DNA from: an uncultured Prevotella sp.
Lineage (GTDB): Bacteria; Bacteroidota; Bacteroidia; Bacteroidales; Bacteroidaceae
DNA length: 64,000 bases
Direction of reading: 5' to 3'
Assembly (NCBI GenBank): GCA_905236165.1
Contig: CAJOOC010000111.1
Coordinates: 2,924 to 66,923 of the forward strand
Each line of letters starts with the position of its first letter. Position 1 is the stretch's first letter. The notes under the pieces are model-generated. The model saw only the letters and a list, made by a program, of their open reading frames with translations. It had not been told where the DNA came from and made no database searches. Shown one piece after another: positions 184 through 63,540 of this stretch. Made by a program: the position numbers and the translations under genes.

Positions 184-219
184 AATAGGAGAAATCGGAA
201 TAGTCGGAATAATCAGAAA
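184..219 (+). repeat. 9-bp tandem micro-array, 4 units (AATAGGAGA AATCGGAAT AGTCGGAAT AATCAGAAA)
   Basis: Read directly; fills the spacer before the polyprenyl synthetase gene. Confidence 0.75.
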
Positions 220-226
220 AAACAAT

Positions 227-1174
227 ATGCTTAACTCTATAAACCATTTCATTGAAGAACTCCCGCTTGATGTGGAGCCTCGCGGACTTTATGAGCCCGT
301 CAGTTATGTTATGTCGCTTGGCGGTAAGCGCCTTCGTCCCCAGCTGATGCTGATGTCATATGCCCTGTGGAAGGAAGATACCGATGCTGTTCTGCCTCAG
401 GCTGTTGCGCTGGAGATGTATCATAACTTCACGCTCCTTCACGACGATGTGATGGACAATGCTGATATGCGTCGCGGCATGCCTACTGTTCATAAGCGCT
501 GGGATGTGAATACCGCCATCCTTTCTGGCGACAATATGCTATGCATGGCCTTCAGGATGATGGGCGAATGCATGGATGCCGAGGTGTTTGACTGCTTTGC
601 CCGCACCACGATAGAGATTAATCACGGACAGCAGTATGACATCGACTTTGAAAGCCGTCAGGATGTGACAGAGTCGGAGTATATGGAGATGATTCGCCTT
701 AAGACGAGTGTGCTCCTTGCCTGCGCCATGAAGATTGGTGCCCTGCGCGCTGGTGCGCCAAAGGAGGATGTTGAGAGACTGTACCGCTTTGGCGAGTGTA
801 TGGGGCTGGCGTTCCAGCTTCAGGACGATTATCTCGACGTCTACGGTGACCCAAAGGTATTCGGCAAGGCCATCGGTGGTGACATCATGGAGAACAAGAA
901 GACCTTCATGCTCATCAACGCTCTTCTTCGTGCTGAGGGAAAAGACAAGGAGGAGTTACTCCACTGGATTGGCGGCAGGGACTTTGACCGTCAGGAAAAA
1001 GTGTCTGCGGTGACTGCTCTCTACGATAAGCTTGGCATTGACAAACTGGCCCAATCGAAGATTGAGGATTACTATAATATGGCAATACAATCGCTTGATG
1101 AGGTAAATGTTACGGAAGAACGTAAAGTTGCCTTGCGCACCTTTGCTGAGCAGATACTGAAGAGAGAAAAATGA
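227..1174 (+). CDS. Polyprenyl synthetase (IspA/GGPP synthase family)
   Basis: GGKRLRP, HDDVMD (FARM), GQQYD, FQLQDDYLD (SARM). Confidence 0.95.
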   Translation: MLNSINHFIEELPLDVEPRGLYEPVSYVMSLGGKRLRPQLMLMSYALWKEDTDAVLPQAVALEMYHNFTLLHDDVMDNADMRRGMPTVHKRWDVNTAILSGDNMLCMAFRMMGECMDAEVFDCFARTTIEINHGQQYDIDFESRQDVTESEYMEMIRLKTSVLLACAMKIGALRAGAPKEDVERLYRFGECMGLAFQLQDDYLDVYGDPKVFGKAIGGDIMENKKTFMLINALLRAEGKDKEELLHWIGGRDFDRQEKVSAVTALYDKLGIDKLAQSKIEDYYNMAIQSLDEVNVTEERKVALRTFAEQILKREK

Positions 1175-1956
1175 TACGTTTCATCGATACCCATATACAC
1201 CTTGACGGTGAAGAGTATGATGCTGATCGCCAGCAGGTAGTATCACGTGCCGTAGCCTCTGGAGCAGAGATGCTCTTCGTACCGGGCATCAACCTCGCTT
1301 CGGTAGGAACGGTGAAAGATGTTTGTGCTACCTATCCCGATGTGTGTCGGGGTATGATAGGCCTCCATCCCGAGGATGTGAAGGCGGACTACAGGGAGGT
1401 GCTTGCCGAGCTGAGGACCCATCTTGACGACATCCCTTGGATAGCCATAGGCGAGATAGGTCTTGACTACTACTGGTCCCGCGAATTTGAGAACGAGCAG
1501 CAGGAGGCGTTCGAGGTTCAGGTGGAGTGGGGCAGTGAACGCTCCCTTCCGCTGATGATACACAGCCGTAAGGCCCAGAACGATATAGTGCATATCCTTC
1601 GCGGCAAACAAGGAGTGCGTGGCGTGTTCCATTGCTTTACGGGCAACGCTCATGAGGCTGAGGAACTGCTTTCTTTTGACGGTTTCTGTCTGGGCATCGG
1701 TGGTGTGCTGACATTCAAGAAGAGTAACCTTCCTGAGACTCTGGCTGCTGCAGTACCTTTGCAGCGCATTGTGCTTGAGACGGATGCTCCCTATATGGCT
1801 CCCGTACCCCACAGAGGAGAGCGAAACGAATCGTCTTTTATAGTTAATATAATAAACAGACTGGCAGAGGTTTATAATGTCTCACCTGAAGAAGTGGCAC
1901 AAGTTACTACACGTACTGCAAAAAAGATGTTTCAAATTAACGAATTAACAAATTAA
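1171..1956 (+). CDS. tatD: TatD family deoxyribonuclease
   Basis: DTHIH, GLHP, GEIGLDY, HSR, HCF, ETDAPY motifs. Confidence 0.95.
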   Translation: MIRFIDTHIHLDGEEYDADRQQVVSRAVASGAEMLFVPGINLASVGTVKDVCATYPDVCRGMIGLHPEDVKADYREVLAELRTHLDDIPWIAIGEIGLDYYWSREFENEQQEAFEVQVEWGSERSLPLMIHSRKAQNDIVHILRGKQGVRGVFHCFTGNAHEAEELLSFDGFCLGIGGVLTFKKSNLPETLAAAVPLQRIVLETDAPYMAPVPHRGERNESSFIVNIINRLAEVYNVSPEEVAQVTTRTAKKMFQINELTN

Positions 1957-1960
1957 CGAA
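1933..1960 (+). repeat. 8-bp micro-array (CRAATTAA) containing the tatD stop codon
   Basis: caaattaa cgaattaa caaattaa cgaa. Confidence 0.9.
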
Positions 1961-2110
1961 CCCCGAGCATAGCGACTATAAAGAATTGCCCGTAGTTGCC
2001 CCAGCGGGGCGGGCGAATTCTTTAAGAAGCATTGCGAGCGGGTCGGCGAAAGCCAATTAACAAATTGGCATCGCCGAACTTCTTAATGCTATAGTTAACA
2101 TATTAAAGAA

Positions 2111-4165: not shown

Positions 4166-5399
4166 GCTCCCAGAGGATTTCGCGGCCTACACCCGTGAAC
4201 TGTTTGGCGAAGAACGTTGGGAAAGGTATCTCGCATCTTTCAACGATACTCCCCCAGTGTCCATACGTCTGAACCCATTCAAGGCAACTGCCGGCATTGG
4301 GATACCTTTATCGGGAACGGACAAGATGCCTGTCCCGTGGTGCTGGAACGCCTGGTATCTTGCCGAACGCCCTGACTTTACCGCTGATCCTCTGCTCCAT
4401 GCAGGCACCTATTACGTTCAGGAGGCGGCATCGATGTTCCTTGATGAGATGATGCGACAGCTGCCAATGCCTGTTGAGGGCAGAGTACTGGATTTGTGTG
4501 CCGCACCAGGTGGCAAGTCAACACTTATGAGAGCCGTCCTTGCCGATGAAGTGACGCTCTATAGCAACGAGCCCAACAGAAAGCGTGCAAACATCCTGAT
4601 GGAGAATATGCAGAAGCAGGGCCACCATAACGTTGTTGTTACCAACAACTTCCCCGCTGACTATCAGAGGGCAGGCATGCTCTTCGACATGATACTCACC
4701 GATGTGCCCTGTTCCGGTGAGGGGATGTTCAGGAAGGATGCCGGCTCCATAGAAGAATGGTCGCTCAATGGCGTGATGAAATGTCAGCAGCTGCAGCGTG
4801 AGATAGTAGAGACGATATGGCCGTGCCTGAAAGAGGGCGGCATACTTATATATAGCACATGCACCTTCAATACCCGTGAGGATGAGGAGAACGTAAAATG
4901 GATAATGGACACGCTTGGGGCTTCACCCGTTGCTGTCTCTGTTCAGCCAGAATGGCAGATTACTGGTTCTCTTCTCAAGGGCTTCGACGCTCCGGTATAC
5001 CGCTTTATCCCTGGTATCTCTAAGGGCGAGGGTCTTTTTATGGCTGTGATGCGGAAGACGGGTGGAGCGACGTTGATGGAGAAGACGGGCAGACATGCTG
5101 CAAACGGTCTGCATATCCTCTCTGATGGTAATCCCAAGGTCACCGACAAGGCTCCCGCACACGCTGAGGCATTGCTGGCAGCTCTTGACAGGAGCAGATA
5201 CCCTATGGTGGAGCTGACCCTTGACGATGCCTTGAGATACCTTCATCGTGAGGCGCTGGTGTTGCCGCCTGATACGCCGAGGGGTTTTGTCATAGTGACA
5301 TATCAGAACATCCCGCTCGGATTTATGAAGAATATCGGTACAAGGGCCAACAATCTTTACCCGCAGGAGTGGAGGATAAGGAGAGGGGTTGACCATTGA
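4146..5399 (+). CDS. RsmB/RsmF (NOL1/NOP2) rRNA m5C methyltransferase
   Basis: YYVQEAAS, LDLCAAPGGKST, DVPCSGEG, YSTCT; start uncertain (ATG 4146 or TTG 4158). Confidence 0.9.
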   Translation: MNSSLNRLPEDFAAYTRELFGEERWERYLASFNDTPPVSIRLNPFKATAGIGIPLSGTDKMPVPWCWNAWYLAERPDFTADPLLHAGTYYVQEAASMFLDEMMRQLPMPVEGRVLDLCAAPGGKSTLMRAVLADEVTLYSNEPNRKRANILMENMQKQGHHNVVVTNNFPADYQRAGMLFDMILTDVPCSGEGMFRKDAGSIEEWSLNGVMKCQQLQREIVETIWPCLKEGGILIYSTCTFNTREDEENVKWIMDTLGASPVAVSVQPEWQITGSLLKGFDAPVYRFIPGISKGEGLFMAVMRKTGGATLMEKTGRHAANGLHILSDGNPKVTDKAPAHAEALLAALDRSRYPMVELTLDDALRYLHREALVLPPDTPRGFVIVTYQNIPLGFMKNIGTRANNLYPQEWRIRRGVDH

Positions 5400-5415
5400 A
5401 CATTGACCATTGAAA
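5388..5415 (+). repeat. 7-bp micro-array (RTTGAMM) containing the methyltransferase stop codon
   Basis: gttgacc attgaac attgacc attgaaa. Confidence 0.9.
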
Positions 5416-6171: not shown

Positions 6172-6711
6172 ATGAAGAAAATACTGTTTAGCATAGCATT
6201 CATTGGTGTAGTGTTGGCATGCTCCACTACTCCCGAGCGTAGCATTCAGCCACTTATTGAGGGTGCGGTGATGGGTGCCTTGGATAAGCCTGCCTCATAT
6301 CAGCCCATCCAGACAGAGATAGACAGTGCCTTCTCCCCACAGGATGATGCTGACCTGTTCCGCTTGCTGTCAGAGATAGCAGACCTCAACCAGGAACTCA
6401 GCCTCACGATAGGCAAGGGGTCTGTTGTCCTGACTGGCGACGTTAAGGAGAAAATCAAGGACAAGACGGAGAAAGTGGCACAGATACTCCAGCGTAAGAA
6501 GACGTTCATCGGCTATAAGGTCACACATACCTTCAGCGCAGAGAATAATCTTGGCGAGAACGTGAAGGAAAGCAATATCTATCTGGTAAACAAAGATGTC
6601 AGCAAGATACTCTTCTCAATGACGCCAGAGGACTATGCTCAGCTGCAGCAGGCCATTGTCACGCTGCAGGAGAAATTCCAGAAGCGGCTCGAAGTTCCCG
6701 AGGAACAATGA
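6172..6711 (+). CDS. Hypothetical lipoprotein
   Basis: MKKILFSIAFIGVVLAC lipoprotein signal; no recognised domain. Confidence 0.7.
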   Translation: MKKILFSIAFIGVVLACSTTPERSIQPLIEGAVMGALDKPASYQPIQTEIDSAFSPQDDADLFRLLSEIADLNQELSLTIGKGSVVLTGDVKEKIKDKTEKVAQILQRKKTFIGYKVTHTFSAENNLGENVKESNIYLVNKDVSKILFSMTPEDYAQLQQAIVTLQEKFQKRLEVPEEQ

Positions 6712-6763
6712 CCTGTTTCCTTTCCTGTCCATAAACAATGACCTGTTTCCTTTCCTGTCCATA
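6704..6763 (+). repeat. Perfect 30-bp tandem duplication spanning the stop codon
   Basis: AACAATGACCTGTTTCCTTTCCTGTCCATA x2. Confidence 0.95.
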
Positions 6764-6878
6764 ATTAGTGTGGTCATCGGTCTTGATGACTACGGTCGAT
6801 GTCGCCCCTGTTGAAAATGTAACATGTCAACGAAAGTTAAATCTTAGGTTTATCTCCGTATTGTGTGAGATTTTTTAG

Positions 6879-11152: not shown

Positions 11153-11192
11153 TAATTAGTAACTGATAACTGGTAACTAGTAACTGTAAACT
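11153..11192 (-). repeat. 7-bp micro-array (plus strand TAACTRN) containing the stop of the HsdR_N gene
   Basis: taattag taactga taactgg taactag taactgt. Confidence 0.9.
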
Positions 11193-11640: not shown

Positions 11641-11741
11641 ATTGACCGTTGACCATTGACCGTTGACCATTGACCATTCTTTGGTCATAGGCGCAACACT
11701 TCATTGCGCCAGCCTAATGTTCAATCTTCAATGTTCAATGA
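11641..11741. repeat. Inverted pair of 7-bp arrays (RTTGACC x5 / TCAATNT x4) flanking a small hairpin
   Basis: 11641-11675 and 11715-11741; GGCGCAA...TTGCGCC at 11690-11710. Confidence 0.9.
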
Positions 11742-15600: not shown

Positions 15601-16120
15601 GGACCTTTACAAGGAGCAGCTGGAGGAGGGCGAGAAACTCACCGGTGAGGACTTTGTGGACGACTGCAACATTGAGAGCGACCTGCAGATGTACTTCCCC
15701 GACTACTACGTGCCCGGCAGCAGCGAGAGGATGATACTCTATCGCGAACTGGACAACATACAGACCGATGCCGACCTTGAGGCCTACCGCAAGAGGATGG
15801 AAGACCGCTTCGGCCCCGTGCCGCCAGAGGGACAGGAGCTGATGATGGTAGTGCTGCTCCGGCGTCTCGGCAGGAAGCTGGGCTGCGAGAGGCTCATCCT
15901 CAAGCAGCACCAGATGCAGATGCAGTTTGTGGGCAACGAAGGGAGTGTCTTCTACAGAAGCAAGTTCTTCGAGGCCGTGCTCTCGTATGTGCAGACACAT
16001 CCGCGCCTCTGCGACTTCAAGGTTGCAGGCGGCCATAACAGGCTCATAATAAAGAATGTACCAAGCGTAAGCGAAGCAACTAACATACTAAAGAATATAC
16101 TAAAAACGACAGAGCAATGA
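12653..16120 (+). CDS. mfd: Transcription-repair coupling factor
   Basis: RGSILDVF, CarD-like VHVDFGIG, CGDVGFGKTE, DEEQKFG, SATPIPRT, QMRGRVGR, TRCF C-terminus. Confidence 0.97.
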   Translation: MQIGELLSLYGKSGSVKALASLLSKKRIRKAALSGLTQSSLAVNFASVLRGKVPPVLFIMRDADEAGYLYQDMSRMLGEERVSLFPSSYKRAVKFGQRDASLEIIRTETLTRITSQAEQSGEEPQHGYAIVTYPAALAEMVISRHDLDDRHLSLKKAQTIPLTMVERQLRELGFSERDYVYEPGQFAIRGSILDVFSFSSEDPYRIDFFDDDIDSMRTFDVETQLSKEMLDAVNIVPQISSTETEKQPFLDFLSCETVIVSQDIRYVTDAIDYIYKEGFSKQALTDRLASATEMDKAAITRELTASLNLCPASRFSQAVAAMRQIEYSSGMKDASDYQASVTFQSTPQPLFHKNFELLAETMHDYYSRGYKIYILSDSDKQHERLAEIFASLKSGDGYVSDILDKWQVKGTLHEGYIDDELKLLLFTDHQIFERFHKYQLKGQSAKRGKMALTMKELQEMEPGDFIVHVDFGIGKFGGLVRVPVTSPAGKGAVEYQEVIRIIYAKGDKVDVSIHSLYKISKYRRSDVGEPPRLSTLGTGAWDRIKERAKKRIKDIARDLIKLYAKRRHEKGFAFSADTYLQHELEASFLYEDTPDQMKATQDVKHDMEQARPMDRLVCGDVGFGKTEVAMRAAFKAACDGKQVAVLVPTTVLAFQHYKTFSKRLQGLPVTVDYLTRARTPKQVKELQANLECGKVDILVGTHRMLTKTVKWKDLGLLIIDEEQKFGVSTKEKLRQLKTNVDTLAMSATPIPRTLQFSLMGARDMSIMRTPPPNRQPIDTQVATFSPELVSDAINFEMSRDGQVYFVCHRIATLTKMKEIIERHVPDCRIAVGHGQMKPEELEKIIMGFINHDYDVLLSTTIVENGIDIPNANTIIINDANHFGLSDLHQMRGRVGRSNRKAFCYLLAPPLAYLPTESRRRLEALETFADLGSGFNLAMQDLDIRGAGNLLGAEQSGFMEDLGYETYQKILSQAVNELKNDEFQDLYKEQLEEGEKLTGEDFVDDCNIESDLQMYFPDYYVPGSSERMILYRELDNIQTDADLEAYRKRMEDRFGPVPPEGQELMMVVLLRRLGRKLGCERLILKQHQMQMQFVGNEGSVFYRSKFFEAVLSYVQTHPRLCDFKVAGGHNRLIIKNVPSVSEATNILKNILKTTEQ

Positions 16121-17262
16121 GACGAATTACACCTCTCCCCAGCCCTCTCCAAAGGAGAGGGAGTAGCGGCATAAGCCGATTCTTCACTCTTCACTTTGCA
16201 CTTCTCACTTTTATTCTTCAATGGTCAATGGTCAATAGTCAATGGTCAACGGTCCGTGCCCAGAATCCCCAGAAGGGTGACTACTTCCTCTATTGCCACA
16301 TGAGCGACAAGGGACAGTGGACAGCCTTTGCCGTCAGCAAGGATGCGGAGCAATGGGAGGACATCCTTGGCGGCGATTCTATCTTCTCCAGCCATAAGCT
16401 GGCAGGCATAGAGGGTGGCACGCGCGATGCCTACATCTGCCGCAGCCACGACATGAAGCGCTATCTCATGGTGGCCACCGATATGAACAACTCCAAGACC
16501 AAGGCGCTGGGAAAGAAAGAGGCCTGGGACAACTACGGCATCAACCTCCTCACCTCCGACGACCTCATACACTGGAAGTCCACCACCTTCGACTATCGCA
16601 AGGGACTCTCCATCTTCATCGACCAGGACCCCGCGAAGTCCGTCTATAAAGACTGGTCGACGGTGAACCGCGTGTGGGCTCCGCAGACCTTCTGGGACCC
16701 CGACTATGTGTGGGAAGACGGTACGAAGGGCGGCTACTTCATCTACTACTCCATGTGGAACCGCGCCGAGGAGAAGTATGACCGCATGTACTATTCCTAT
16801 GCCGACCAGTCGTTCACGCGCCTCACACAGCCGCAGCCGCTCTTCGACTGGGGCTATGCCACCATTGATGCCGACATCAACTACGTGCCTGCCGACGGCC
16901 TCTACCACATGATGATAAAGAAAGAAGGCGGCAAGCCCGGACTCTTCACCGCTACGTCGAAGAAACTCACAGGCCCCTGGAGCGAACCCGTGGAGGATGA
17001 CTATGTCAACTTCGAGGGCAAGAAGAAATGCGAGGGCGTCAGCGCCTTCCAGGTACCAGGCGAGGAAGGCTGGCGAATAGCCTACATCGAATACTCCTCA
17101 CGTCCCCGCAACTACCGCATCTGCAAGGCCGACAAATTCATGCGCAACTTCCGCAACCCCGAGAACATCAAAGGGGTCACAGCACCACAGCACGGCTCCT
17201 TCATGCGCATCACAAAGAAAGAATACAAACGCCTGAAGAAACTCAAGAAGGCTGCATATTGA
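16117..17262 (+). CDS. Secreted glycoside hydrolase, GH43-like beta-propeller
   Basis: GTRDAYI, MVATD, SDDLIHW, WAPQ, IDAD, EG, QHGS motifs. Confidence 0.8.
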   Translation: MRRITPLPSPLQRRGSSGISRFFTLHFALLTFILQWSMVNSQWSTVRAQNPQKGDYFLYCHMSDKGQWTAFAVSKDAEQWEDILGGDSIFSSHKLAGIEGGTRDAYICRSHDMKRYLMVATDMNNSKTKALGKKEAWDNYGINLLTSDDLIHWKSTTFDYRKGLSIFIDQDPAKSVYKDWSTVNRVWAPQTFWDPDYVWEDGTKGGYFIYYSMWNRAEEKYDRMYYSYADQSFTRLTQPQPLFDWGYATIDADINYVPADGLYHMMIKKEGGKPGLFTATSKKLTGPWSEPVEDDYVNFEGKKKCEGVSAFQVPGEEGWRIAYIEYSSRPRNYRICKADKFMRNFRNPENIKGVTAPQHGSFMRITKKEYKRLKKLKKAAY

Positions 17263-18103: not shown

Positions 18104-19309
18104 ATGCCAATAATATCTACCCGCGGCGTGGAGATGCCCGAGTCTCCTATCCGTAAGTTAGCACCTCTGGCCGCTGCTGCGAAGAAACGCGGCATCAGGG
18201 TGTATCACCTGAATATCGGTCAGCCCGACCTGCCCACGCCGCAGGTGGCGCTGGACGCTCTGAAGAATGTGAACCGCTCCATCCTGGAGTATTCACCCTC
18301 GCAGGGTTACCTCTCCTACAGGGAGAAGCTGGTGGGTTACTACGCCAAGTATGACATCAAGGTGTCGCCCGAGGATATCATCATCACCAGCGGCGGCTCT
18401 GAGGCCATACTCTTTGCCTTCATGGCCTGCCTGAACCCTGGCGACGAGATTATAGTGCCCGAACCCGCCTACGCCAACTATATGGCCTTTGCCATCAGCG
18501 CCGGAGCGAAGATCCGCACTATCGCCACCACCATCGACGAGGGCTTCTCCCTGCCGAAGGTGGAGAAGTTCGAGGAGCTTATCAACAGCCGCACCCGAGC
18601 CATCATGATATGCAACCCCAATAACCCTACGGGATATCTCTATACACGCCGCGAGATGAACCAGATAAGGGATCTGGTGAAGAAATATGACCTGTACCTC
18701 TTCTCTGACGAGGTGTACCGTGAGTATATCTACACGGGTTCGCCATATATCAGCGTATGCCATCTTGAGGGCATTGAGGATAACGTGGTGCTTATCGACT
18801 CTGTGTCAAAGCGTTACAGCGAGTGCGGCATCAGAATTGGAGCCCTCATCACGAAGAATGCCGAGATACGCCAGGCCGTGATGAAGTTCTGCCAGGCACG
18901 TCTGTCACCACCGCTCATAGGTCAGATAGTGGCTGAGGCATCGCTCGATACCCCCGAGGAATATATGAGGGAGGTGTATGACGAGTACGTGGAGCGCAGG
19001 AAGGTGCTCATCGACGGTCTGAACCGCATACCAGGTGTCTATTCGCCCATCCCCATGGGAGCCTTCTACACTATGGCGCAGCTGCCCGTGGACGATGCCG
19101 AGAAGTTCTGCCGATGGTGTCTGGAGAAGTTCAATTATGAGGGCGAGACGGTGATGATGGCTCCCGGAGCAGGTTTCTACACCACTCCCGGTGCCGGCAT
19201 CAACGAGGTGCGTATAGCCTACGTGCTGAAGAAACCCGACCTGGAGCGCGCCCTCGTGGTGCTGAGAAAAGCCCTGGAGGAGTATCCGGGAAGGACGGTG
19301 ACGAATTGA
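18104..19309 (+). CDS. Class I/II PLP-dependent aminotransferase (aspartate aminotransferase-like)
   Basis: LNIGQPD, CNPNNPTG, SDEVY, SVSKRYS..GIRIG. Confidence 0.93.
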   Translation: MPIISTRGVEMPESPIRKLAPLAAAAKKRGIRVYHLNIGQPDLPTPQVALDALKNVNRSILEYSPSQGYLSYREKLVGYYAKYDIKVSPEDIIITSGGSEAILFAFMACLNPGDEIIVPEPAYANYMAFAISAGAKIRTIATTIDEGFSLPKVEKFEELINSRTRAIMICNPNNPTGYLYTRREMNQIRDLVKKYDLYLFSDEVYREYIYTGSPYISVCHLEGIEDNVVLIDSVSKRYSECGIRIGALITKNAEIRQAVMKFCQARLSPPLIGQIVAEASLDTPEEYMREVYDEYVERRKVLIDGLNRIPGVYSPIPMGAFYTMAQLPVDDAEKFCRWCLEKFNYEGETVMMAPGAGFYTTPGAGINEVRIAYVLKKPDLERALVVLRKALEEYPGRTVTN

Positions 19310-19346
19310 ACATTGAACATTGACCATTGATTATTGAAGATTGAAC
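19305..19346 (+). repeat. 7-bp micro-array ATTGANN x6 filling the whole spacer
   Basis: attgaac attgaac attgacc attgatt attgaag attgaac. Confidence 0.92.
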
Positions 19347-20616: not shown

Positions 20617-20737
20617 CCCACCCCGGAAAGTGAAGAGTGAAGAATCGCGGGCGAGACGCCCACGTCCCTGACTAAAGAAAATTGACAATTAACTGTTAAC
20701 TAGTAACTGATAACTGTTAACTAGTTACTGATAACTT
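20617..20737. repeat. Composite junction: CCCACCCCGG remnant, AGTGAAG array, GGGCG-AGA-CGCCC hairpin, TAACTRN x7 array
   Basis: 20617-20626; 20628-20644; 20646-20664; 20690-20737. Confidence 0.85.
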
Positions 20738-23700: not shown

Positions 23701-24205
23701 GTGTAACTTCCGCACTATGGGTAAGAAATTCGGTAAGCTGATGAAGGATGTGAACAACGCTGTCATGGCGATGTCGCAGGAGCAGATTTCCGAGTTGGAG
23801 CAGAACGGCACCATCACTCTCGATGTGGCCGGACAGCCCACACTCATTGAGGCTGTCGACGTTGAGATAATCTCTGAGGACATCCCCGGCTGGACCATTG
23901 CCCAGGAAGGCAAAATCACAGTAGCCCTCGACATAGAGATTACGCCAGAGCTGAAGAACGAAGGCATGTCGCGCCTCATCATCAAGAGAATACAGGCCAT
24001 GCGTAAGGAGTCAGGCTTTGAAATCACCGACCGCATCAGCGTGGAGATAGAGGAGCAGGCCGACCTTCGAAAGGCTGTGGAGGCCTTCGGCGAGCATATC
24101 GCTTCGCAGGTGCTGGCCAACTCTCTCACTATGGGCGACGCTGCTGAAGGCATCGAAACCGACTTCGGCGACTTCAAGGCGAAGGTGAGGATTGTTAAGA
24201 GTTAA
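20765..24205 (+). CDS. ileS: Isoleucine--tRNA ligase (type 2)
   Basis: EGPPSANGHPGIHH, WTTTPWTLPSN, GTGIVHIAP, WNLSRSRYWG, KMSKR. Confidence 0.97.
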   Translation: MKFKEHKSLNLVETNEQMLGEWEKQDVFHKSISEKEGCPEFVFFEGPPSANGHPGIHHVMGRTIKDTFLRYKTMKGYQVKRKAGWDTHGLPVELSVEKSLGITKEDIGKKISVDDYNDACRKNVMMYTDEWSQLSSKMGYWVDLEHPYITYDIKYIETLWWLLKQLYNKGLLYKGYTIQPYSPAAGTGLSSHELNQPGCYRDVKDTTVTAQFRVTDKAPVDTDLPTYILAWTTTPWTLPSNTALCVGPKIDYVAVKGNNPYTDEEAVYILAEARLGAYFNVNENENNVEILWRGTGADLLDLHYQQLMPWVKPCELQDGEVVVKEQDAFRVIPGDYVTTDDGTGIVHIAPTFGADDAKVAKDAGIPSLFIIDKAGDTRPMVDFQGKYFVKDDIDEAFLGKCVNESYWKHSGDYVKNAYDPKYNKDGKYDEKAAAKDMDLNVVICLEMKEEGSAFKIEKHVHNYPHCWRTDKPVLYYPLDSWFIRSTAKKDRMYELNKTINWHPESTGTGRFGKWLENLNDWNLSRSRYWGTPLPIWRNRDTKQEKCIGSLEELYNEIEKAVAAGVMASNPLKDKGFVPGDMSQENYDRIDIHRPYVDDIKLVGDDGSVLTRELDLIDVWFDSGAMPYAQIHYPFENKDLIDKGQAYPADFIAEGVDQTRGWFFTLHAIATMVFDSVAFKNVISNGLVLDKNGIKMSKRLGNVINPFECIGQYGTDPVRWYMVTNSSPWDNLSFDPDGVKEVISSFFIKLYQAYSFFTLYANVDGFEYKEADVPFEERPDFDRWLLSELNTLVKSVDEYLASYDVTPATRLIQSFVIDKLSNWYIRLNKKRFWGGGMTQDKLSAYQTLYTCLDTLARLIAPVAPFYADQLFRDLNEATGKDSAISVHLAQFPEANGAYIDTQLEQAMQTAMQVTSMVLSLRKKVKIPVIQALQMISIPAGDAELRQSIERMASVILAETNVKELKFIEEGSGMQLVKKVKCNFRTMGKKFGKLMKDVNNAVMAMSQEQISELEQNGTITLDVAGQPTLIEAVDVEIISEDIPGWTIAQEGKITVALDIEITPELKNEGMSRLIIKRIQAMRKESGFEITDRISVEIEEQADLRKAVEAFGEHIASQVLANSLTMGDAAEGIETDFGDFKAKVRIVKS

Positions 24206-24256
24206 GAGTTAAGAGTTGAGAGTTAAGAGTTGATAGTTGATAGTTATCAGTTAAAA
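24194..24256 (+). repeat. 7-bp micro-array GTTRANA x9 containing the ileS stop
   Basis: gttaaga x3 gttgaga gttaaga gttgata x2 gttatca gttaaaa. Confidence 0.95.
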
Positions 24257-24687: not shown

Positions 24688-25356
24688 ATGAAGAAGGGTG
24701 TGCTCTACACCTTATTTATAATATTACTGCTTGTCATAGACCAGAGCATCAAGATATGGGTGAAGACACACATGTGTCTGCATGAGAGCCGTCACATCAC
24801 CGACTGGTTCTATCTCTCGTATATCGAGAACAACGGCATGGCCTATGGCATGACCTTCATTCCGAAGTATGCGCTGAGCATCTTCAGACTCGTTGCCTGC
24901 TGCGCCCTGATGTGGTACATACGCAGGGAGATTCTTCGCGGGGCACGCACCATCTGGCTCATACTGCTCTCGATGGTGCTGGCCGGAGCGGCTGGCAACC
25001 TCATAGACTGTATGTTCTACGGACTGATATTCAATGGGGCATCATCCTACTATACGTCATTCTTCGTAGACTTCGGCACAGGCTATGCTCCGTTCCTGCA
25101 GGGAAAGGTGGTGGACATGTTCTACTTCCCCCTGATAGTGACTACATACCCCGACTGGTTCCCACTATGGGCTGGAGAGCCGTTCATCTTCTTCGCTCCG
25201 ATATTCAATTTCGCCGATGCATGCATCTCCGTTAGCGTAGTGGCGATACTGCTGTTCTGCAGAAGAGAACTGACGCCGGAGGAGGGGGAGCCCGGGAGCA
25301 CGGAATCACAGAATAATGGTATTACGGAACCACGAAATAACGATATCACGGAATAG
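24688..25356 (+). CDS. lspA: Lipoprotein signal peptidase II
   Basis: DQSIK, ENNGMAYG, GAAGNLID, VVDM, IFNFAD; alternative TTG start at 24676. Confidence 0.92.
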   Translation: MKKGVLYTLFIILLLVIDQSIKIWVKTHMCLHESRHITDWFYLSYIENNGMAYGMTFIPKYALSIFRLVACCALMWYIRREILRGARTIWLILLSMVLAGAAGNLIDCMFYGLIFNGASSYYTSFFVDFGTGYAPFLQGKVVDMFYFPLIVTTYPDWFPLWAGEPFIFFAPIFNFADACISVSVVAILLFCRRELTPEEGEPGSTESQNNGITEPRNNDITE

Positions 25357-28748: not shown

Positions 28749-28812
28749 ACCTCTCCCGACCTCCCCAAGGGGGAGGAGGGTTAATTCGTTAATTTGTTAA
28801 TTCGTTAATTCG
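28749..28812 (+). repeat. CT-rich/GA-rich palindrome followed by 8-bp array GTTAATTY x4
   Basis: acctctcccgacctccccaagggggaggag then gttaattc gttaattt gttaattc gttaattc. Confidence 0.9.
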
Positions 28813-30637: not shown

Positions 30638-30826
30638 ATGAAGAAATATGAAGATGCATTGAAAGAACTGGAAGAGCTGGCTCAGCGAATGGAAAGTGGC
30701 GACTTCAAAATCGACACTATCAAGACTGATATTGACAAAGCCAGAAAGCTCATCAAGTTCTGCAGGGATGCTTTGACAAAGACTGAAGAAGAAATAAATG
30801 CAATTATATCCCAAGATAATAACTGA
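30638..30826 (+). CDS. xseB: Exodeoxyribonuclease VII small subunit
   Basis: KYEDALKELEE...MESG...LIKFC...L...E pattern, 62 aa. Confidence 0.8.
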   Translation: MKKYEDALKELEELAQRMESGDFKIDTIKTDIDKARKLIKFCRDALTKTEEEINAIISQDNN

Positions 30827-37724: not shown

Positions 37725-37772
37725 AAGCATTTTAATATTTTAATATTCAATATTTCAATCTTCTATTTGATT

Positions 37773-39823: not shown

Positions 39824-39895
39824 GTCTGCGATACCATCGCAGACATTTCGACCATTCGATAATTTGTTAATTCGTTAATTTGTTAATTCGTCAAT
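39824..39895 (+). repeat. REP-like palindrome copy 2 followed by 8-bp GTTAATTY array
   Basis: GTCTGCGATACCATCGCAGACATTTCG (39824-39850); array 39858-39895 abutting the cmk ATG. Confidence 0.9.
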
Positions 39896-40573
39896 ATGGT
39901 AATAGCAATAGACGGCCACTCTTCCTGTGGCAAAAGCACAATGGCCAAGAAGCTGGCCAAGGATTTAGGGTATATCTACGTTGACACGGGAGCGATGTAT
40001 AGGGCTGTGACGCTTTACTGCATGCGTAACGGTATTATCGCAGATGGCAAGGTGGATAATAAAAAACTGACTGAGGCGATGCCTCTCATCAACGTGTCCT
40101 TCAAACTGAATTCTTCAACGGGACTGCCTGAGACGTATCTTGGCGAAGAATGTGTGGAGAACGTGATACGCACCATAGAGGTAAGCAACAACGTGTCTCC
40201 TATTGCCGCTATTCCACTCGTAAGAGAGGCGATGGTGAGCCAGCAGCGACAGATGGGACTCAACCAGGACATCGTCATGGACGGAAGGGATATAGGCACA
40301 ACGGTCTTTCCTAATGCCGACCTGAAAATCTTCGTTACGGCATCGGCACCAGTACGGGCACAGCGCCGCTACGACGAATTGAAGGCAAAGGGCATGCCGG
40401 CTGACTATGAGGATATTCTCAAAAACGTAGAGGAGCGCGACTACATCGACTCCCACAGAGAGGTGTCGCCACTTCGCCAAGCACCAGATGCGCTCCTGCT
40501 CGACAACTCTGAGATGACAATAGAGCAACAGCAGCAATGGCTCATGCAACAAGTAGACCGCTTACGCAAATAA
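39896..40573 (+). CDS. cmk: Cytidylate kinase
   Basis: [35 protein letters not shown]. Confidence 0.96.
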
Positions 40574-40590
40574 CAATAATTAACTAAAGT

Positions 40591-40618
40591 TTCGCTTTTC
40601 ACTTTTCACTATTCACTT
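40591..40618 (+). repeat. 7-bp micro-array TTCRCTW x4
   Basis: ttcgctt ttcactt ttcacta ttcactt, 5 nt before the ATG. Confidence 0.8.
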
Positions 40619-40623
40619 TCCGG

Positions 40624-45122: not shown

Positions 45123-45165
45123 AAAAAATCTCTAACAAGCTCACTTAAGGCTGTTAGAGATTTTT
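45123..45165 (-). terminator. Rho-independent terminator after the tRNA
   Basis: AAAAATCTCTAACA...TGTTAGAGATTTTT stem with T-tract on the minus strand. Confidence 0.8.
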
Positions 45166-45166
45166 G

Positions 45167-45248
45167 TGCCCAGAACGGGACTCGAACCCGTACACCCGGA
45201 AGTATTGGTGTTTGAGACCAACGCGTCTACCAATTCCGCCATCTGGGC
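45167..45248 (-). tRNA. tRNA-Leu (CAA)
   Basis: GCCCAGATGGCGGAATTGGTAGACGCG-TTGGT CTCAAAC ACCAA-variable arm-GGTTCGAGTCC-TCTGGGCA; CCA not encoded. Confidence 0.97.
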
Positions 45249-45308
45249 AAGGCTTGTGTCGAGTTACCTCAGTTGAAGGTATATCGACAGCCTTTGATTA
45301 ACGGGGTG

Positions 45309-46811: not shown

Positions 46812-46853
46812 GTCTTCGTTTTCGTAGGGACGCAGTCCCACTTCGTCTTCGTC
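46812..46853 (-). repeat. 6-bp RACGAA array with an embedded GTAGGGAC/GTCCC hairpin
   Basis: gtcttc gttttc gtagggacgcagtcccac ttc gtcttc gtc. Confidence 0.85.
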
Positions 46854-47801
46854 TTACAACGTTTGCAAATATCTTTCAGCATCGAGTGCGGCCTTACATC
46901 CTGTGCCAGCAGCTACGATGGCCTGTCGATAGACTGGGTCGCATACATCGCCTGCAGCGAATACTCCTGGCAGTATCTTGCCGTTAGTATCGCAGACCTG
47001 CTGCGTGGTGCCTACGGTCTTGATATACCCCATCTCGTCGAGGGCTATATTGTCGCGGAAGATGTCTGTAACTGGCTTGTGGCCTATTGCGAGGAAAAAT
47101 CCGTCGATGGCTACGTCGTAGTGCTCCTCATCGGCTTCACCCTTGCGCTTCACGAGGTGCATGCCTTCTACGCCGTTCTCACCATAGAGCCCTGTGGCAT
47201 TATGCTCAAAGAGTATATCGATGTTCTCTGCGCCCTTGATGCGCTGCTGCATGATGTCTGAGGCTCTGAGGTAGTTCTTGCGCACCACCAGATACACCTT
47301 CTTGCAGAGGTGTGAGAGGTAGAGGGCATCTTCGCATGCTGTGTCACCGCCACCCACTACGGCTGTCACCTTCTTGCGATAGAAGAAACCGTCGCATGTG
47401 GCACAGGCGCTGACACCCTGACCTTTATACTTCTCCTCATCAGGCAGACCGAGGTATTTTGCCTTTGCACCTGTGGCGATGATGATGCTGTCAGCCTCTA
47501 TTACCGTACCGTCCTCAGCCATTGCCTTATAGGGGCGTGAGGAGAAGTCAATGGAGGTAATCTCGCCGTCGCGGATGTCGGCACCGAAGCGCTCCGCCTG
47601 CTCGCGGATTTCCATCATCATCTGATTGGCATCCACGCCCTGAGGGTAACCGGGGAAATTCTCTACTTCTGTGGTCTGAGTGAGCTGCCCGCCCATCTGC
47701 GGACCACAATACTCTATCGGGGAAAGGTTTGCTCTCCCAGCATAAATGGCAGCGGTATAGCCTGCAGGCCCGCTACCGAGGATAAGACATTTTGTTTTCA
47801 A
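46854..47801 (-). CDS. trxB: Thioredoxin reductase
   Basis: GSGPAGYTAA, GGQL, ENFPG, CATCDG, GGGD.A, FAAGD; TTG start. Confidence 0.97.
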   Translation of the reverse strand: MKTKCLILGSGPAGYTAAIYAGRANLSPIEYCGPQMGGQLTQTTEVENFPGYPQGVDANQMMMEIREQAERFGADIRDGEITSIDFSSRPYKAMAEDGTVIEADSIIIATGAKAKYLGLPDEEKYKGQGVSACATCDGFFYRKKVTAVVGGGDTACEDALYLSHLCKKVYLVVRKNYLRASDIMQQRIKGAENIDILFEHNATGLYGENGVEGMHLVKRKGEADEEHYDVAIDGFFLAIGHKPVTDIFRDNIALDEMGYIKTVGTTQQVCDTNGKILPGVFAAGDVCDPVYRQAIVAAGTGCKAALDAERYLQTL

Positions 47802-47837
47802 ATTGAATATTGAAGGATGAAAGTTGAAGATTGAAAA
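47802..47837 (-). repeat. 7-bp micro-array (plus strand RWTGAAN x5)
   Basis: attgaat attgaag gatgaaa gttgaag attgaaa. Confidence 0.8.
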
Positions 47838-48305
47838 TTACGCAAGCATTTCAGCTATTTTCGTTTCTATCTCAGCGAATGGTGTTGTGGCCGAATATCG
47901 TGCCACGACTTTGCCAATCTTGTTGACGAGGAACTTTGTGAAGTCTTCTGTTATCTCTCCTGGCTGCTTCTCTGTGAGGTATTTGAAGAGTGGGTCGGCA
48001 TCATCGCCGTTCACCTTTACCTTCTTGAAGCGTGGAAACTCCGTCTCGTATGTGTCCTTGCAGAACTGATGTATCATCTCGTCCGTTCCGGGACACGACT
48101 TTGTGGGTTGGTTAGAGGGGAAGTCGAGCACCTCAAAGCCCTGTGCATGGTATTTCCGGTAGATAGCCTGAAGATCGGCATATTGTGGGGTTTGTGTACT
48201 CTTGATGGCTGTGTTTACTATCAGTACAACCTCGTTAGCGTAGAGGTTAAGTGGAACGGCATTGCCTTTGCGGTCTTTTACCGTGATTTCGTGTATTGAG
48301 TTCAT
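47838..48305 (-). CDS. Glutathione peroxidase-fold protein lacking canonical catalytic residues
   Basis: LIVNTA..., TPQY, LDFP.NQ, PG, F.K..VNG..A.PLFKYL, FTKFLV; SKCG motif reads IKST. Confidence 0.85.
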   Translation of the reverse strand: MNSIHEITVKDRKGNAVPLNLYANEVVLIVNTAIKSTQTPQYADLQAIYRKYHAQGFEVLDFPSNQPTKSCPGTDEMIHQFCKDTYETEFPRFKKVKVNGDDADPLFKYLTEKQPGEITEDFTKFLVNKIGKVVARYSATTPFAEIETKIAEMLA

Positions 48306-52410: not shown

Positions 52411-52450
52411 AATTCGTTAATTTGTTAATTTGTTAATTCGTTAATTCGTT
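52411..52450 (-). repeat. 8-bp array (AACRAATT x5 on minus) containing the mazG stop
   Basis: plus strand aattcgtt aatttgtt aatttgtt aattcgtt aattcgtt. Confidence 0.92.
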
Positions 52451-54054: not shown

Positions 54055-54095
54055 TTAATTCAATTTTCAATTTTCAATTTTCAATCTTCAATTCT
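54055..54095 (-). repeat. 7-bp array (ATTGAAR on minus) containing the bamD stop
   Basis: plus strand ttcaatt ttcaatt ttcaatt ttcaatc ttcaatt. Confidence 0.9.
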
Positions 54096-58073: not shown

Positions 58074-58224
58074 ATTATTGCAAAATACACGAATTAACTA
58101 ATTATCGAATTGTCTCCGCATGGAGATTAACGATTCTGATATGTCTGTGCGAAAGTCTTTGACATACTTGAAAATTCGTATGATTCGTGTTCTAACTAAA
58201 AGTGAAATACGCAGTCGTAAAAGG

Positions 58225-58848: not shown

Positions 58849-58935
58849 GTTTTTATCTTTGTCTTCGTCTTCGTAGGGACGAAAGTCCCGCTTCGTCTTC
58901 GTTTTCGTCTTCGTCTTCGTTTTCGTTTTCGTCTT
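58849..58935 (-). repeat. 6-bp RACGAA array with an embedded GTAGGGAC-GAAA-GTCCC hairpin
   Basis: gtcttc/gttttc units; hairpin 58873-58891. Confidence 0.92.
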
Positions 58936-60655: not shown

Positions 60656-61927
60656 ATGACAGGAAAAGTAGATGTGCTCCTTGGTTTGCAATGGGGCGAT
60701 GAAGGAAAAGGTAAGGTGGTTGACGTGCTCACACCAAAGTATGACGTAGTAGCCCGTTTTCAGGGCGGTCCTAATGCCGGCCATACCCTTGAGTTTAATG
60801 GTGAGAAATACGTGCTGCGTTCCATTCCCTCTGGTATCTTCCAGGGTGGTAAGGTGAATATTATAGGCAATGGCGTGGTTCTTGCTCCCGACCTCTTCAT
60901 GGACGAGGCGAAGGACCTGGAGAAGAGCGGCCACGACCTGAAGTCGCGCCTGCATATCTCGAAGAAGGCTCATCTCATCATGCCAACCCACCGCGTGCTG
61001 GATGCTGCCATCGAGGCTTCGAAGGGCAAGAACAAGGTGGGCACTACAGGCAAGGGTATCGGTCCTACCTATTCTGACAAGATTGCCCGCACGGGTCTGC
61101 GTGTCGGCGATATCCTTGAGAACTTCGAGGAGAAGTATGCCGCCCACAAGGCTCGCCACGAGGAGCAGCTTCGCGCCATGAACTATACCGACTACGACAT
61201 CACTGAGGTAGAGAAGAAATGGCTTGAGGGTGTGGAGTATATCAAACAGTTCCAGATTGTTGACAGCGAACACGAGATCAACAAGATGCTGAAGACTGGC
61301 AAGAGCGTGTTGTGTGAGGGTGCCCAGGGTACGATGCTCGACGTGGACTTCGGTTCATATCCCTTCGTGACCTCTTCCAACACTATCTGCGCAGGAGCCT
61401 GCACGGGTCTCGGACTGGGTCCCAACAAGATTGGTGAGGTATACGGCATCATGAAGGCCTACTGCACACGTGTCGGTGCGGGTCCATTCCCTACGGAGCT
61501 CTTCGACGAGACGGGCAGCAAGATGCGCGACATAGGCCACGAATACGGTGCCGTTACAGGGCGTGAGCGCCGCTGCGGATGGATAGATCTCGTGGCCCTG
61601 CGCTATTCTATCATGGTGAACGGCGTTACACAGCTCATCATGATGAAGAGCGACGTGCTCGATACCTTCCCCACCATCAAGGCCTGCGTGGCATATAAGG
61701 TGAATGGTGTGGAGACCCCCGACTTCCCTTACGACATAGAGAAAGGCATAGAGCCCGTTTACAAGGAACTGAAGGGCTGGCAGACCGACATGACGAAGTT
61801 TACGTCAGAGGACCAGTTCCCGCAGGAATTCAAGGATTACATCAAGTTCCTTGAAGAACAGCTGGAGACACCTATCAGGATTATCTCTATCGGCCCTGAC
61901 AGAGAACAGACAATCGTGAGACAATAA
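60656..61927 (+). CDS. purA: Adenylosuccinate synthetase
   Basis: QWGDEGKGK, QGGPNAGHT, GIGPTY, EGAQG, TRVGAGPFPTE, TGR.RRCGW. Confidence 0.98.
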   Translation: MTGKVDVLLGLQWGDEGKGKVVDVLTPKYDVVARFQGGPNAGHTLEFNGEKYVLRSIPSGIFQGGKVNIIGNGVVLAPDLFMDEAKDLEKSGHDLKSRLHISKKAHLIMPTHRVLDAAIEASKGKNKVGTTGKGIGPTYSDKIARTGLRVGDILENFEEKYAAHKARHEEQLRAMNYTDYDITEVEKKWLEGVEYIKQFQIVDSEHEINKMLKTGKSVLCEGAQGTMLDVDFGSYPFVTSSNTICAGACTGLGLGPNKIGEVYGIMKAYCTRVGAGPFPTELFDETGSKMRDIGHEYGAVTGRERRCGWIDLVALRYSIMVNGVTQLIMMKSDVLDTFPTIKACVAYKVNGVETPDFPYDIEKGIEPVYKELKGWQTDMTKFTSEDQFPQEFKDYIKFLEEQLETPIRIISIGPDREQTIVRQ

Positions 61928-61931
61928 AAGT

Positions 61932-62099
61932 CCCACCCCGGCCCTCCCGAAGGGGAAGGGACGGGAAAGGGTCAAGTGGTTTAAGTGGTATAAGAGTTTA
62001 AGAGTTTAAGAGGTTAAGAAATTTAAGAAGTTTAAGAAGTTTAAGAAATTCCCCTGCATTCACATCCCTCCCCCCCCTTGGGGGAGTTGGTGGGGGGCT
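61932..62099. repeat. Inverted pair of CT/GA palindromic repeats enclosing an 8-9 bp TTTAAGA(A)G array
   Basis: 61932-61961; array 61970-62050; 62065-62099. Confidence 0.88.
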
Positions 62100-62107
62100 T
62101 TAATAAT

Positions 62108-63481
62108 ATGAGCAAACCAAGTATACCAAAGGGCACCCGTGACTTCGGAGCCCTTGAGATGGCAAAGAGAAACTATATCTTCAATACTATCCGCGGGGTG
62201 TTCGAGCTCTACGGTTTTCGTCAGATAGAGACGCCTGCAATGGAGAACCTCTCCACGCTGATGGGTAAGTACGGCGAGGAGGGCGACAAGCTGTTGTTTA
62301 AGATACTCAACTCTGGCGATTTCCTTCACGGCATGACCGCCGACGAGGTGGCCAACACCTCTACGCTGAAGCTTGCGTCGAAGTTCTGCGAGAAAGGTCT
62401 GCGCTACGACCTCACCGTGCCTTTCGCACGCTATGTGGTGCAGCACCGCGAAGAGCTTCTGCTGCCCTTCAAGCGCTATCAGATACAGCCCGTATGGCGT
62501 GCCGACCGTCCGCAGAAGGGTCGCTACAGGGAGTTCTACCAGTGTGACGTCGATGTGGTGGGCTCTGACTCGCTGCTCAACGAGGTGGATCTCATGCAGA
62601 TTACCGACACCATCTTCACCAGGTTCGGCGTAAGGGTTCAGATAAAAATCAACAACCGCAAGATCCTTACCGGCATAGCAGAGGCCATTGGCGAGGCCGA
62701 CAAGATAGTGGATATCACCGTTGCCATCGACAAGCTTGACAAGATAGGCCTTGAGGCCGTCAACGAAGAACTGCGCCAGGACGGCATCTCTGAGAAGGCC
62801 ATAGAGAAACTGCAGCCCATCATCAAGCTTGAGGGCAGCAACGCGCAGAAGCTCGATACCATAGCAGAGGTGCTCCGTGACTCGGAGACAGGCATGAAGG
62901 GCGTTGAGGAGATGCGCTTCATCCTCAACACCATCGGTGCCCTCGACACACCCAAGGGTTCGCTGAACAATGAACTGCAGCTGGACCTCACGCTGGCCCG
63001 CGGACTGAACTACTACACAGGAGCTATCTTCGAGGTTAAAGCCCTCGACGTTCAGATAGGCAGCATCACGGGTGGCGGCCGTTACGACAACCTCACGGGT
63101 ATCTTCGGTATGCCCGGACTCTCGGGCGTGGGTATCTCCTTCGGTGCAGACCGCATCTACGACGTGCTGAACCAGCTGGACCTGTACCCACAGGAGACTG
63201 TGACGGGCACCAAACTGCTCTTCATCAACTTCGGCGAGAAAGAAACGGCCTACTGCATGCCTATTGCACGCCTCTGCCGCGAGGCCGGAATAGCTACTGA
63301 GGTATATGCCGACAGCGTGAAGATGAAGAAGCAGATGTCTTACGCCAACGCCCTCAGCATCCCGTTCGTAGCCCTTGCCGGCGAGAACGAGATGAACGAA
63401 GGCAAGGTGACGCTGAAGAATATGACAACAGGCGAGCAAAGTCTGGTAACGCCAGAAGAACTCATTGCGGCAATTAGTTAA
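62108..63481 (+). CDS. hisS: Histidine--tRNA ligase
   Basis: [52 protein letters not shown]. Confidence 0.98.
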
Positions 63482-63483
63482 TC

Positions 63484-63540
63484 TTTTACTTTCAATCTTC
63501 AACTTTCAACTTTCAATTTTCAACTTTCAACTTTCAATTT
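63484..63540 (+). repeat. 7-bp array TTCAAYY, about 8 units
   Basis: ttcaatc ttcaact ttcaact ttcaatt ttcaact ttcaact ttcaatt. Confidence 0.92.

What the first reader, a model, noticed from the sequence alone, without database searches (positions are those of the whole stretch)
184..63540. Polarised micro-repeat arrays at gene junctions: a candidate undescribed junction-targeting system
Seen: about 25 degenerate tandem arrays with 6-9 bp units from several unrelated families, nearly all at junctions of co-oriented genes. Read on the coding strand, arrays next to a STOP use one orientation: ATTAACGA (tatD, mazG), ATTGAAC/ATTGACC/ATTGAAA (rsmF-like, GT2, aminotransferase, bamD), GTTACTA/GTTAAGA (HsdR_N, ileS), AGTGAAG (lolE), GACGAA (trxB, oxidoreductase), CACGGAAT (lspA). 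Arrays next to a START use the reverse complement: TCAATGG (HsdR_N), TAACTRN (ileS), GTTAATTC (recR, cmk), TTCACTT (engB), TTCAAY (meaB, trxB, CE12), AATTCGTG (thioesterase, porin). Spacers filled entirely by one array occur in either orientation and do not test the rule. Inference: this fits left and right arms of cassettes that insert between operon genes and can pair in the mRNA, with this window showing empty or decayed sites. I recall small Bacteroidota genes (four-helix-bundle TIGR02436, GxxExxY, DUF559) often sitting between such arrays, but could not verify it here. None of them is present in this window.
Basis: partly seen in the sequence, partly recalled or inferred. Interest (0 to 1): 0.9.

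Follow-up and report, generated by a model that had tools for sequence, protein, structure and literature searches.

The report
Arms of mobile four-helix-bundle gene hairpins
The short repeat runs between this rumen Prevotella's genes match the mirror-image arms that bracket a small four-helix-bundle gene in this genome and its relatives, and they are likely left-over halves of gene-less copies that spread fast by an unknown route, which would tie long-unexplained bacterial 7-base repeats to one gene family.

Summary
The arrays are real: 376 in strictly intergenic DNA against 0-1 in shuffles. Polarity holds genome-wide (p=1e-10, orientation learnt from other genomes). The words are the inverted arms of four-helix-bundle (FHB, PF05635) and GxxExxY cassettes. 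A congener carries an FHB cassette at the window's purA-hisS junction.

The polarity needs no stop/start sensing. A left-arm/spacer/right-arm hairpin reads the same on both strands. Convergent junctions are hit as often as co-oriented ones (25% vs 23%), and 48 heptamer arrays lie mid-gene.

Turnover is fast. A sister species has arrays at 35 of 88 shared array junctions, with the same word at only 6. Gene-less modules are copied between junctions (138 bp, 98% identical). FHB clades track their words and are under purifying selection. No reverse transcriptase was found, and RNA pairing or processing is untested.

Print knows pieces: the 23S rRNA intervening sequence with heptamer arms, polarised TAACTGA repeats, and REPIN/RAYT. 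Nine searches found no paper joining them. This scan reported the same class before on other genomes.

The parts
193..219 (+). three degenerate 9-mers filling most of the spacer before the polyprenyl synthase gene; does not test the rule
   Evidence: sequence
1935..2066 (+). left arm (ATTAACRA) supplying the tatD stop, plus a ~95-bp non-repeat module; the whole is copied at three other junctions (97.8%, 97.7%, 92.3%)
5389..5414 (+). left arm (ATTGACC/ATTGAAC) over the rsmF-like stop; same word as FHB arms at serC-serA in relatives
11153..11192 (-). left arm (GTTACYA; TAACTRG on +) at the HsdR_N-domain gene stop, convergent junction
11641..11740 (-). complete gene-less element: left arm ATTGAAC over the glycosyltransferase stop, GC hairpin, right arm TCAAYGG before the HsdR_N start; folds as one stem (z=-3.0)
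16181..16254 (+). two right arms (TCTTCAC, TCAATGG) after a CCCTCTCC..GGAGAGGG hairpin at mfd 3' end; open in frame with the next gene
19305..19346 (+). left-form array filling the aminotransferase-lolE spacer; other words or none in relatives
20629..20736 (+). composite at lolE-ileS: left arm AGTGAAG x2, dispersed GCGGGCGAGACGCCCACGTCCC hairpin, right arm TAACTRN
24194..24254 (+). left arm GTTAAGA supplying the ileS stop; absent in both sister species
25299..25354 (+). 8-mer array translated as the lspA C-terminal tail; one unit missing in another sample
28780..28812 (+). right arm AATTYGTT before recR; the one window junction that clearly keeps its word in the sister species
37729..37763 (+). 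right-form array (TTCAAT) before meaB; absent in sisters
39847..39903 (+). right arm AATTYGTT abutting the cmk start; this word follows an FHB stop in G106
40590..40619 (+). right arm TTTCACT before engB
46841..46855 (-). short left-form GACGAA array after the trxB stop
47800..47839 (-). right-form array filling the gpx-trxB spacer
52411..52450 (-). left arm ATTAACRA over the mazG stop; sisters carry AGTGAAG here
54059..54093 (-). left arm ATTGAAR over the bamD stop
58089..58111 (-). right-form array before the thioesterase start
58856..58935 (-). left-form GACGAA arrays around a small hairpin after the oxidoreductase stop
61979..62047 (+). left-form GTTTAAGA(A) array between two hairpins at purA-hisS; this junction holds a whole FHB cassette (other word) in G102 and left+right composites in both sisters
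63480..63540 (+). right-form array filling the hisS-GDSL spacer; a complete gene-less hairpin of another word sits here in G202

Best explanation
The arrays carry the same words, in the same handedness, as the inverted arms that bracket four-helix-bundle and GxxExxY genes, and they are likely whole or half-eroded gene-less copies of those cassettes, likely spread by copying that depends on the cassette's own protein. Shown: cassettes have the form left arm, gene, right arm, always in the sense of the flanking genes; gene-less hairpins and modules recur almost identically at unrelated sites; junction content turns over between sister species; FHB clades go with their words. Inferred: internal deletion makes the gene-less forms; copies land widely and survive where tolerated (gene ends, where the TRA-bearing left arm can supply the stop, spacers, and protein linkers); loss of one arm leaves left arms at the left gene and right arms at the right gene, which is the polarity; slippage sets copy number. 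Most speculative: the non-catalytic, Avd-like FHB pentamer would bind its cognate word in single-stranded DNA or RNA and recruit host repair or a partner nuclease to copy the hairpin.
For: Filled cassettes in this genome. 72 of 115 FHB loci with inverted arms vs 7 direct and 3.6% of mismatched pairs. 98 of 98 loci with a mapped flank co-oriented, 17 unmapped. Emptied allele with both arms at an electron-transfer-flavoprotein-operon junction (C29; name recalled) and right-arm remnant at serC-serA (name recalled). Filled purA-hisS allele and FHB with the ATTAACRA word. Left..right order 19 of 20; convergent 19 of 21 left; divergent 8 of 11 right. Same word at 6 of 35 junctions. Copied modules. 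Word follows protein at different junctions: 25% of 212 pairs at >=55% identity, 0% of 1532 below 45%. Genome word load follows the cognate clade. dN/dS median 0.08 over 23 pairs. Unit-sized indels between samples.
Against: No mobilising enzyme identified: no RVT_1 match in six array-rich but incomplete genomes, one partial Y1 transposase. About 490 intergenic arrays face four arm-flanked FHB/GxxExxY genes here. 26 of 83 genomes with only clade A, and 6 of 74 with neither clade, still have >=10 clade-B word matches, and loads of the two word types correlate (rho 0.34), so genome state or kinship contributes. Left and right solo arms are unequal (124:60; 16:85 for the 8-mer), which geometry alone does not explain. 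Polarity is weak for free-standing arrays (p=0.057). 43 of 115 FHB loci fall under the arm threshold. No binding, RNA or insertion data.
Confidence: 0.62

Rival explanations
1. The hairpins are moved in trans by a conventional enzyme (a RAYT-like Y1 transposase, or the GxxExxY / DUF559 nucleases through cut-and-repair homing), and FHB is a passenger kept for another reason.
For: GxxExxY is a PD-(D/E)XK family member. REP-like hairpins share the junctions: one 16-mer at 60 junctions, 47 with an array. A partial Y1 transposase is present. FHB and GxxExxY swap at one junction (L437 vs C136).
Against: GxxExxY genes have their own 9-mer arms. Word load follows the cognate FHB clade: within clade-A carriers, clade B predicts word B (p=2e-6) but not word A (p=0.18). 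No target duplication was evident by eye.
Confidence: 0.2
2. The arrays are host-selected regulatory sites at gene ends, bound by an RNA-binding protein (MacGregor's translational model, with FHB as the binder).
For: Right arms end a median 8-10 bp before starts. FHB is under purifying selection. MacGregor found TAACTGA forward before starts.
Against: Only 6 of 88 array junctions keep the word in a sister species of 82% protein identity. The same junction takes unrelated words or none. Arrays also lie inside coding linkers.
Confidence: 0.12
3. Arrays arise locally by polymerase slippage, and orientation is set by selection for stop codons and initiation context, with no link to cassettes.
For: Unit-sized indels between samples. 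57 of 140 left arrays overlap the stop. 119 of 140 left arrays have stops in all frames.
Against: Polarity persists for arrays with stops in all frames on both strands (39/2 vs 20/48, p=2e-12). In filled cassettes the left arm abuts the FHB start and the right arm follows the FHB stop. Non-repeat modules are copied with the arrays. ATTAACRA is in 1 of 200 other genus genomes, and there it flanks an FHB gene.
Confidence: 0.06

Closest known systems
ORF-bearing intervening sequences (IVS) of 23S rRNA, S23p / PF05635 (Coxiella burnetii; PMC4990558, passages read)
   Same: Same protein family between terminal inverted repeats; the paper reports tandem heptamers of variable number just upstream of the S23p start.
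   Different: Here the cassettes sit between protein genes at 33 distinct junctions, the ORF is under purifying selection rather than decaying, and hundreds of gene-less derivatives exist. RNase III excision is untested.
REPIN / RAYT system (PMC3116915, abstract and passages read)
   Same: A gene flanked by its own inverted word, dispersed gene-less hairpins, decay to single arms, nesting of unrelated elements, gene clade matched to word.
   Different: Arms are tandem arrays of 6-10-base words, not single palindromes. The gene is a helical bundle with no known catalytic site, not a Y1 transposase, and the gene-bearing cassette itself turns up at many junctions.
Polarised TAACTGA repeats of Beggiatoaceae, Cyanobacteria and Bacteroidetes, and heptamer long simple sequence repeats (PMC4679880: abstract, sections 3 and 23 and passages read; Mrazek 2007 seen only as summarised there)
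   Same: Intergenic heptamer arrays, forward before starts and reverse after stops; the window's ileS array contains TAACTGA units.
   Different: That paper names no cargo gene (0 occurrences of 'four helix', 'intervening', '23S') and says no transfer mechanism is evident; it did propose that a repeat-binding protein might be the mobile unit.
Rickettsia palindromic elements and cyanobacterial small dispersed repeats (recalled; papers not held; leads also in earlier scan notes)
   Same: Small repeats inserted in frame in proteins; short hairpins embedded in heptamer arrays.
   Different: No link to a flanked gene family is recalled; not tested here.

Membership tests
23S rRNA IVS with S23p ORF | ORF of family PF05635 / TIGR02436 | tested here: met
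   PDB 2RLD, five chains, E=2e-25; none inside the window
23S rRNA IVS with S23p ORF | ORF bracketed by inverted repeats that can pair | tested here: met
   72 of 115 loci; predicted duplex median -46 vs -28 kcal/mol for mismatched pairs
23S rRNA IVS with S23p ORF | located inside an rRNA gene | tested here: not met
   98 of 115 loci have a protein gene mapped beside them; the 17 others were not identified
23S rRNA IVS with S23p ORF | excised from RNA by RNase III | not testable with these tools
   only assembled contigs were served; an RNase III-like gene is present, under the family cut-off
REPIN / RAYT | dispersed gene-less inverted doublets forming hairpins | tested here: met
REPIN / RAYT | flanked gene is a Y1 tyrosine transposase | tested here: not met
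   flanked genes are PF05635, PF13366 and PF04480; the one partial Y1 match was not examined for arms
REPIN / RAYT | arm is a single short palindrome | tested here: not met
   arms are tandem arrays
MITE | terminal inverted repeats shared with a transposase element, and target-site duplication | tested here: inconclusive
   inverted ends present; no duplication seen by eye, no empty allele close enough to test; no matching transposase sought beyond Y1
Diversity-generating retroelement / retroelement with Avd | reverse transcriptase partner | tested here: not met
   no PF00078 match in G000 and five array-rich relatives, all incomplete
Heptamer long simple sequence repeats | over-represented tandem arrays of 5-11 bases, heptamers commonest, mostly intergenic | tested here: met
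   322 of 622 arrays have period 7; 491 outside genes

The most novel reading that the evidence does not exclude
FHB proteins are word-specific nucleic-acid binders that drive the copying of their own tandem-word hairpins through the chromosome without a transposase or reverse transcriptase of their own: a widespread, undescribed class of selfish element that rewrites about a quarter of operon junctions, gene ends and protein linkers between sister species and accounts for the unexplained bacterial heptamer repeats.
Probability: 0.35. Interest if true: 0.87.

Novelty: new variant of a known kind. Interest (0 to 1): 0.62.

Why it matters
It joins three loose ends: a large protein family of unknown function (PF05635, kin of the DGR protein Avd), heptamer repeats with no known origin, and the rRNA intervening sequences. 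It gives direct tests: each FHB clade has a named word. It also shows a fast source of change in rumen Prevotella: stop codons, initiation regions and protein linkers are rewritten between sister species. The window itself adds footprints, not the active unit, and the scan has met this class before.

Tried and rejected
Arrays as rearrangement breakpoints: rejected, 1 of 89 array junctions vs 6 of 254 others broken against G201 (1.23 of 2.9 Mb of G201 fetched). Preference for co-oriented junctions: rejected. Seeding at local microhomology: inconclusive, mean match 4.14 vs 3.95, p=0.08, 74 cases; the control keeps the stop codon itself. Filled alleles near cmk (30 loci, flanks read by eye) and the ileS operon (80 loci, FHB profile only): none. 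Automated inverted-pair search in this genome gave 26 pairs, mostly host genes or short spacers; small AT-rich ORFs beside arrays gave no new cargo family (14 candidates). Cargo for ATTAACRA in five single-copy genomes of other genera: none; found later in G106. Metagenome scan gave no relative above 78%; those 28 loci were not analysed. RNA runs: X15 covered every bin and may hold DNA; X17 left the FHB gene uncovered; neither shows transcription or processing. The FHB tree is the quick tree, 127 columns, 44 of 119 forks open. In-frame arrays as insertions against G201: 3 of 7 by my gap threshold. Elhai 2008 and Mrazek 2007 were not held. No supplements were read; MacGregor's tables of flanking ORFs might list FHB genes.
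Full report
Setting. The window is C111:2924-66923 of G000 (2.51 Mb, 171 contigs, 83% complete). Its nearest relatives in a named collection are rumen Prevotella assemblies. Gene names come from NCBIfam and Pfam scans. Genome-wide gene calls are my own dicodon model (1847 genes), which misses AT-rich small genes and can misplace starts.

The observation. The arrays are at the stated places. My detector found 622 arrays of period 6-10 in the genome, 491 outside genes; strictly intergenic DNA held 376 against 0-1 in five shuffles. To test polarity without circularity I learnt left/right vocabulary from 120 FHB cassettes of other genomes. Left forms lay nearer the stop in 86 cases and nearer the start in 14; right forms 12 and 29 (p=1.1e-10; 43 ambiguous, 59 unassigned). 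The ATTAACRA family gave 12/1 and 21/47 (p=5e-5; 20 ambiguous); I set its orientation by hand, and the G106 cassette later confirmed it. For arrays with stops in all frames on both strands the split was 39/2 and 20/48 (p=2e-12); for arrays touching neither gene it was weak (23/10, 18/22, p=0.057).

What the words are. This genome has two arm-flanked FHB genes, two GxxExxY genes with 9-mer repeats and a DUF559 gene between hairpins, none in the window; two further, longer FHB-domain genes lack inverted arrays. FHB matched 139 of 200 genus genomes. I fetched 110 loci from the 150 best-scoring of 372 matches, plus two of G000, giving 115 usable genes: 72 had inverted arms, 7 direct, and 3.6% of mismatched pairs passed. 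All 98 with a mapped flank were in the sense of their neighbours. The window's words recur as arms: ATTGACC/ATTGAAC, AGTGAAG, ATTGAAR, GTTAAGAA. The commonest word, ATTAACRA, occurs in 1 of 200 other genus genomes, and there its right form follows an FHB stop. G102 carries a whole FHB cassette between purA and hisS, a junction of this window, with a different word. G000 shows emptied alleles of junctions filled elsewhere: both arms and their inner ends at C29, a right-arm remnant at C41. Of 31 GxxExxY genes examined, many had 9-mer arms but often in direct or nested layouts.

Why the polarity exists. An element of the form left arm, spacer, reverse complement reads left-then-right on either strand. 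It predicts left arms at both stops of a convergent junction (19 of 21), right arms at divergent starts (8 of 11) and left-before-right order (19 of 20). Arrays occupy 22.7% of co-oriented, 24.6% of convergent and 11.4% of divergent junctions. In filled cassettes the left arm abuts the FHB start and the right arm follows its stop, so neither form is tied to stop or start. 48 heptamer arrays lie mid-gene in frame (34 right, 9 left, 5 unassigned), four genes hold a left and a right arm in that order, and 3 of 7 testable ones are gaps in the G201 orthologue. Targeting of junctions is thus not required, though the tight fit to stops (81 of 124 left arrays within 10 bp) and the unequal arm counts (124:60; 16:85) still need selection or a bias in insertion.

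Turnover and copying. Against G201 (549 orthologues, median 82% identity), 334 co-oriented junctions are shared: arrays in both 35, G000 only 53, G201 only 54; the word is shared at 6 of 35. In the window only recR clearly keeps its word. The tatD arm plus about 95 non-repeat bases recurs at three other junctions at 97.8, 97.7 and 92.3%. In 20 hand-picked regions of other genomes, near-identical gene-less hairpins of about 135 bp stand at unrelated sites and keep the inner ends of the FHB cassette. Junctions are mosaics of arms and REP-like hairpins. Samples of the same species differ by unit-sized gaps. The stop inside the C3 FHB gene is a sense codon in three of three DNA runs.

Protein and word go together. 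FHB clades carry distinct word families (quick tree). At different junctions, 25% of 212 pairs above 55% identity share arm words, 7% of 134 at 45-55%, 0% of 1532 below. Genomes with clade B have ten or more matches to its word in 30 of 43, against 26 of 96 with other FHBs and 6 of 61 with none. For clade A it is 59 of 121 against 8 of 79; within clade-A carriers clade B predicts word B (p=2e-6), not word A (p=0.18). Genomes are kin and incomplete, so these p values overstate; many genomes have the word without the detected gene. dN/dS has median 0.08 in 23 of 31 close pairs where it could be computed; pairs overlap; 5 of 115 genes have an internal stop.

Mechanism. Shown: architecture, handedness, copying, turnover, clade-word link. 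Inferred: gene-less forms arise by internal deletion, spread, and erode to single arms. Speculative: FHB binds its word and recruits host repair or a nuclease. FHB matches the five-chain structure 2RLD and resembles Avd (PMC10053308, passages), but no reverse transcriptase was found in six array-rich genomes. Arm pairing is predicted only.

What is known. PMC4990558 (passages) describes the Coxiella IVS: S23p ORF, terminal inverted repeats, tandem heptamers, RNase III excision. PMC4679880 (abstract, sections 3 and 23, passages) describes polarised TAACTGA repeats without a cargo gene. PMC3116915 (abstract, passages) describes REPINs and RAYTs, the best functional analogue. Nine literature searches (open-access and bioRxiv only) found no paper joining FHB or GxxExxY genes to tandem arms at gene junctions. 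Earlier notes of this scan describe the same class on other genomes; they are unchecked AI notes and I count them as no support.

Verdict. It works like REPIN/RAYT and has the anatomy of the rRNA IVS, yet is a member of neither. New variant of a known kind; interest 0.62.

Noticed in passing
G000 C46, C88, C104, C116 and others: 48 heptamer arrays are translated mid-gene (NSQFSILNSQ, SSLFTLHSSL, IDHSPLTIDH types); at the C46 site the G201 orthologue carries a short SLSSPKGEAG stretch instead, which looks like a different hairpin element.
   Followed up: partly
window 16117-16260: The ORF after mfd can start upstream and read through the hairpin and both right arms, giving a basic-then-hydrophobic N-terminus that looks like a signal peptide (by eye, not tested).
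   Followed up: no
G000 junctions, e.g. window 20647-20670: A short hairpin, GCGGGCGAGACGCCCACGTCCC, occurs at 60 of 1245 spacers, 47 with an array; its mobiliser is unknown.
   Followed up: partly
G000 C15:8347, C17:17102, C41:2530, C80:15450, C89:21992, C171:4295: Six elements of 110-270 bp end in inverted YTCAASTTTC motifs within AT-rich flanks and enclose 9-mer or other arms; possible MITE family, several at convergent junctions.
   Followed up: partly
L001:1430-1965: The C3 FHB gene differs more between samples than its flanks (12 differences in 517 letters vs 2 in 1066 in run X7) and has about half their depth in two runs; possibly allele exchange or strains lacking it.
   Followed up: no
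L276, L424 vs L001: The same downstream gene has an FHB cassette in G000, G202 and G016, but G000 has a different upstream gene, and G016 a different arm word.
   Followed up: partly
L437 vs G000 C136: One junction holds a GxxExxY cassette in G000 and an FHB cassette in G161: cargo families swap.
   Followed up: no
window 6704-6764: Exact 30-bp tandem duplication over a gene end, unrelated to the word families.
   Followed up: no
window 45165-45250: A tRNA-like gene shared at 97-100% with sister genomes; not run through a tRNA finder.
   Followed up: no
window 30638-30826: A small 62-codon ORF, xseB-like by recall, below the ORF list threshold and conserved in both sisters.
   Followed up: no
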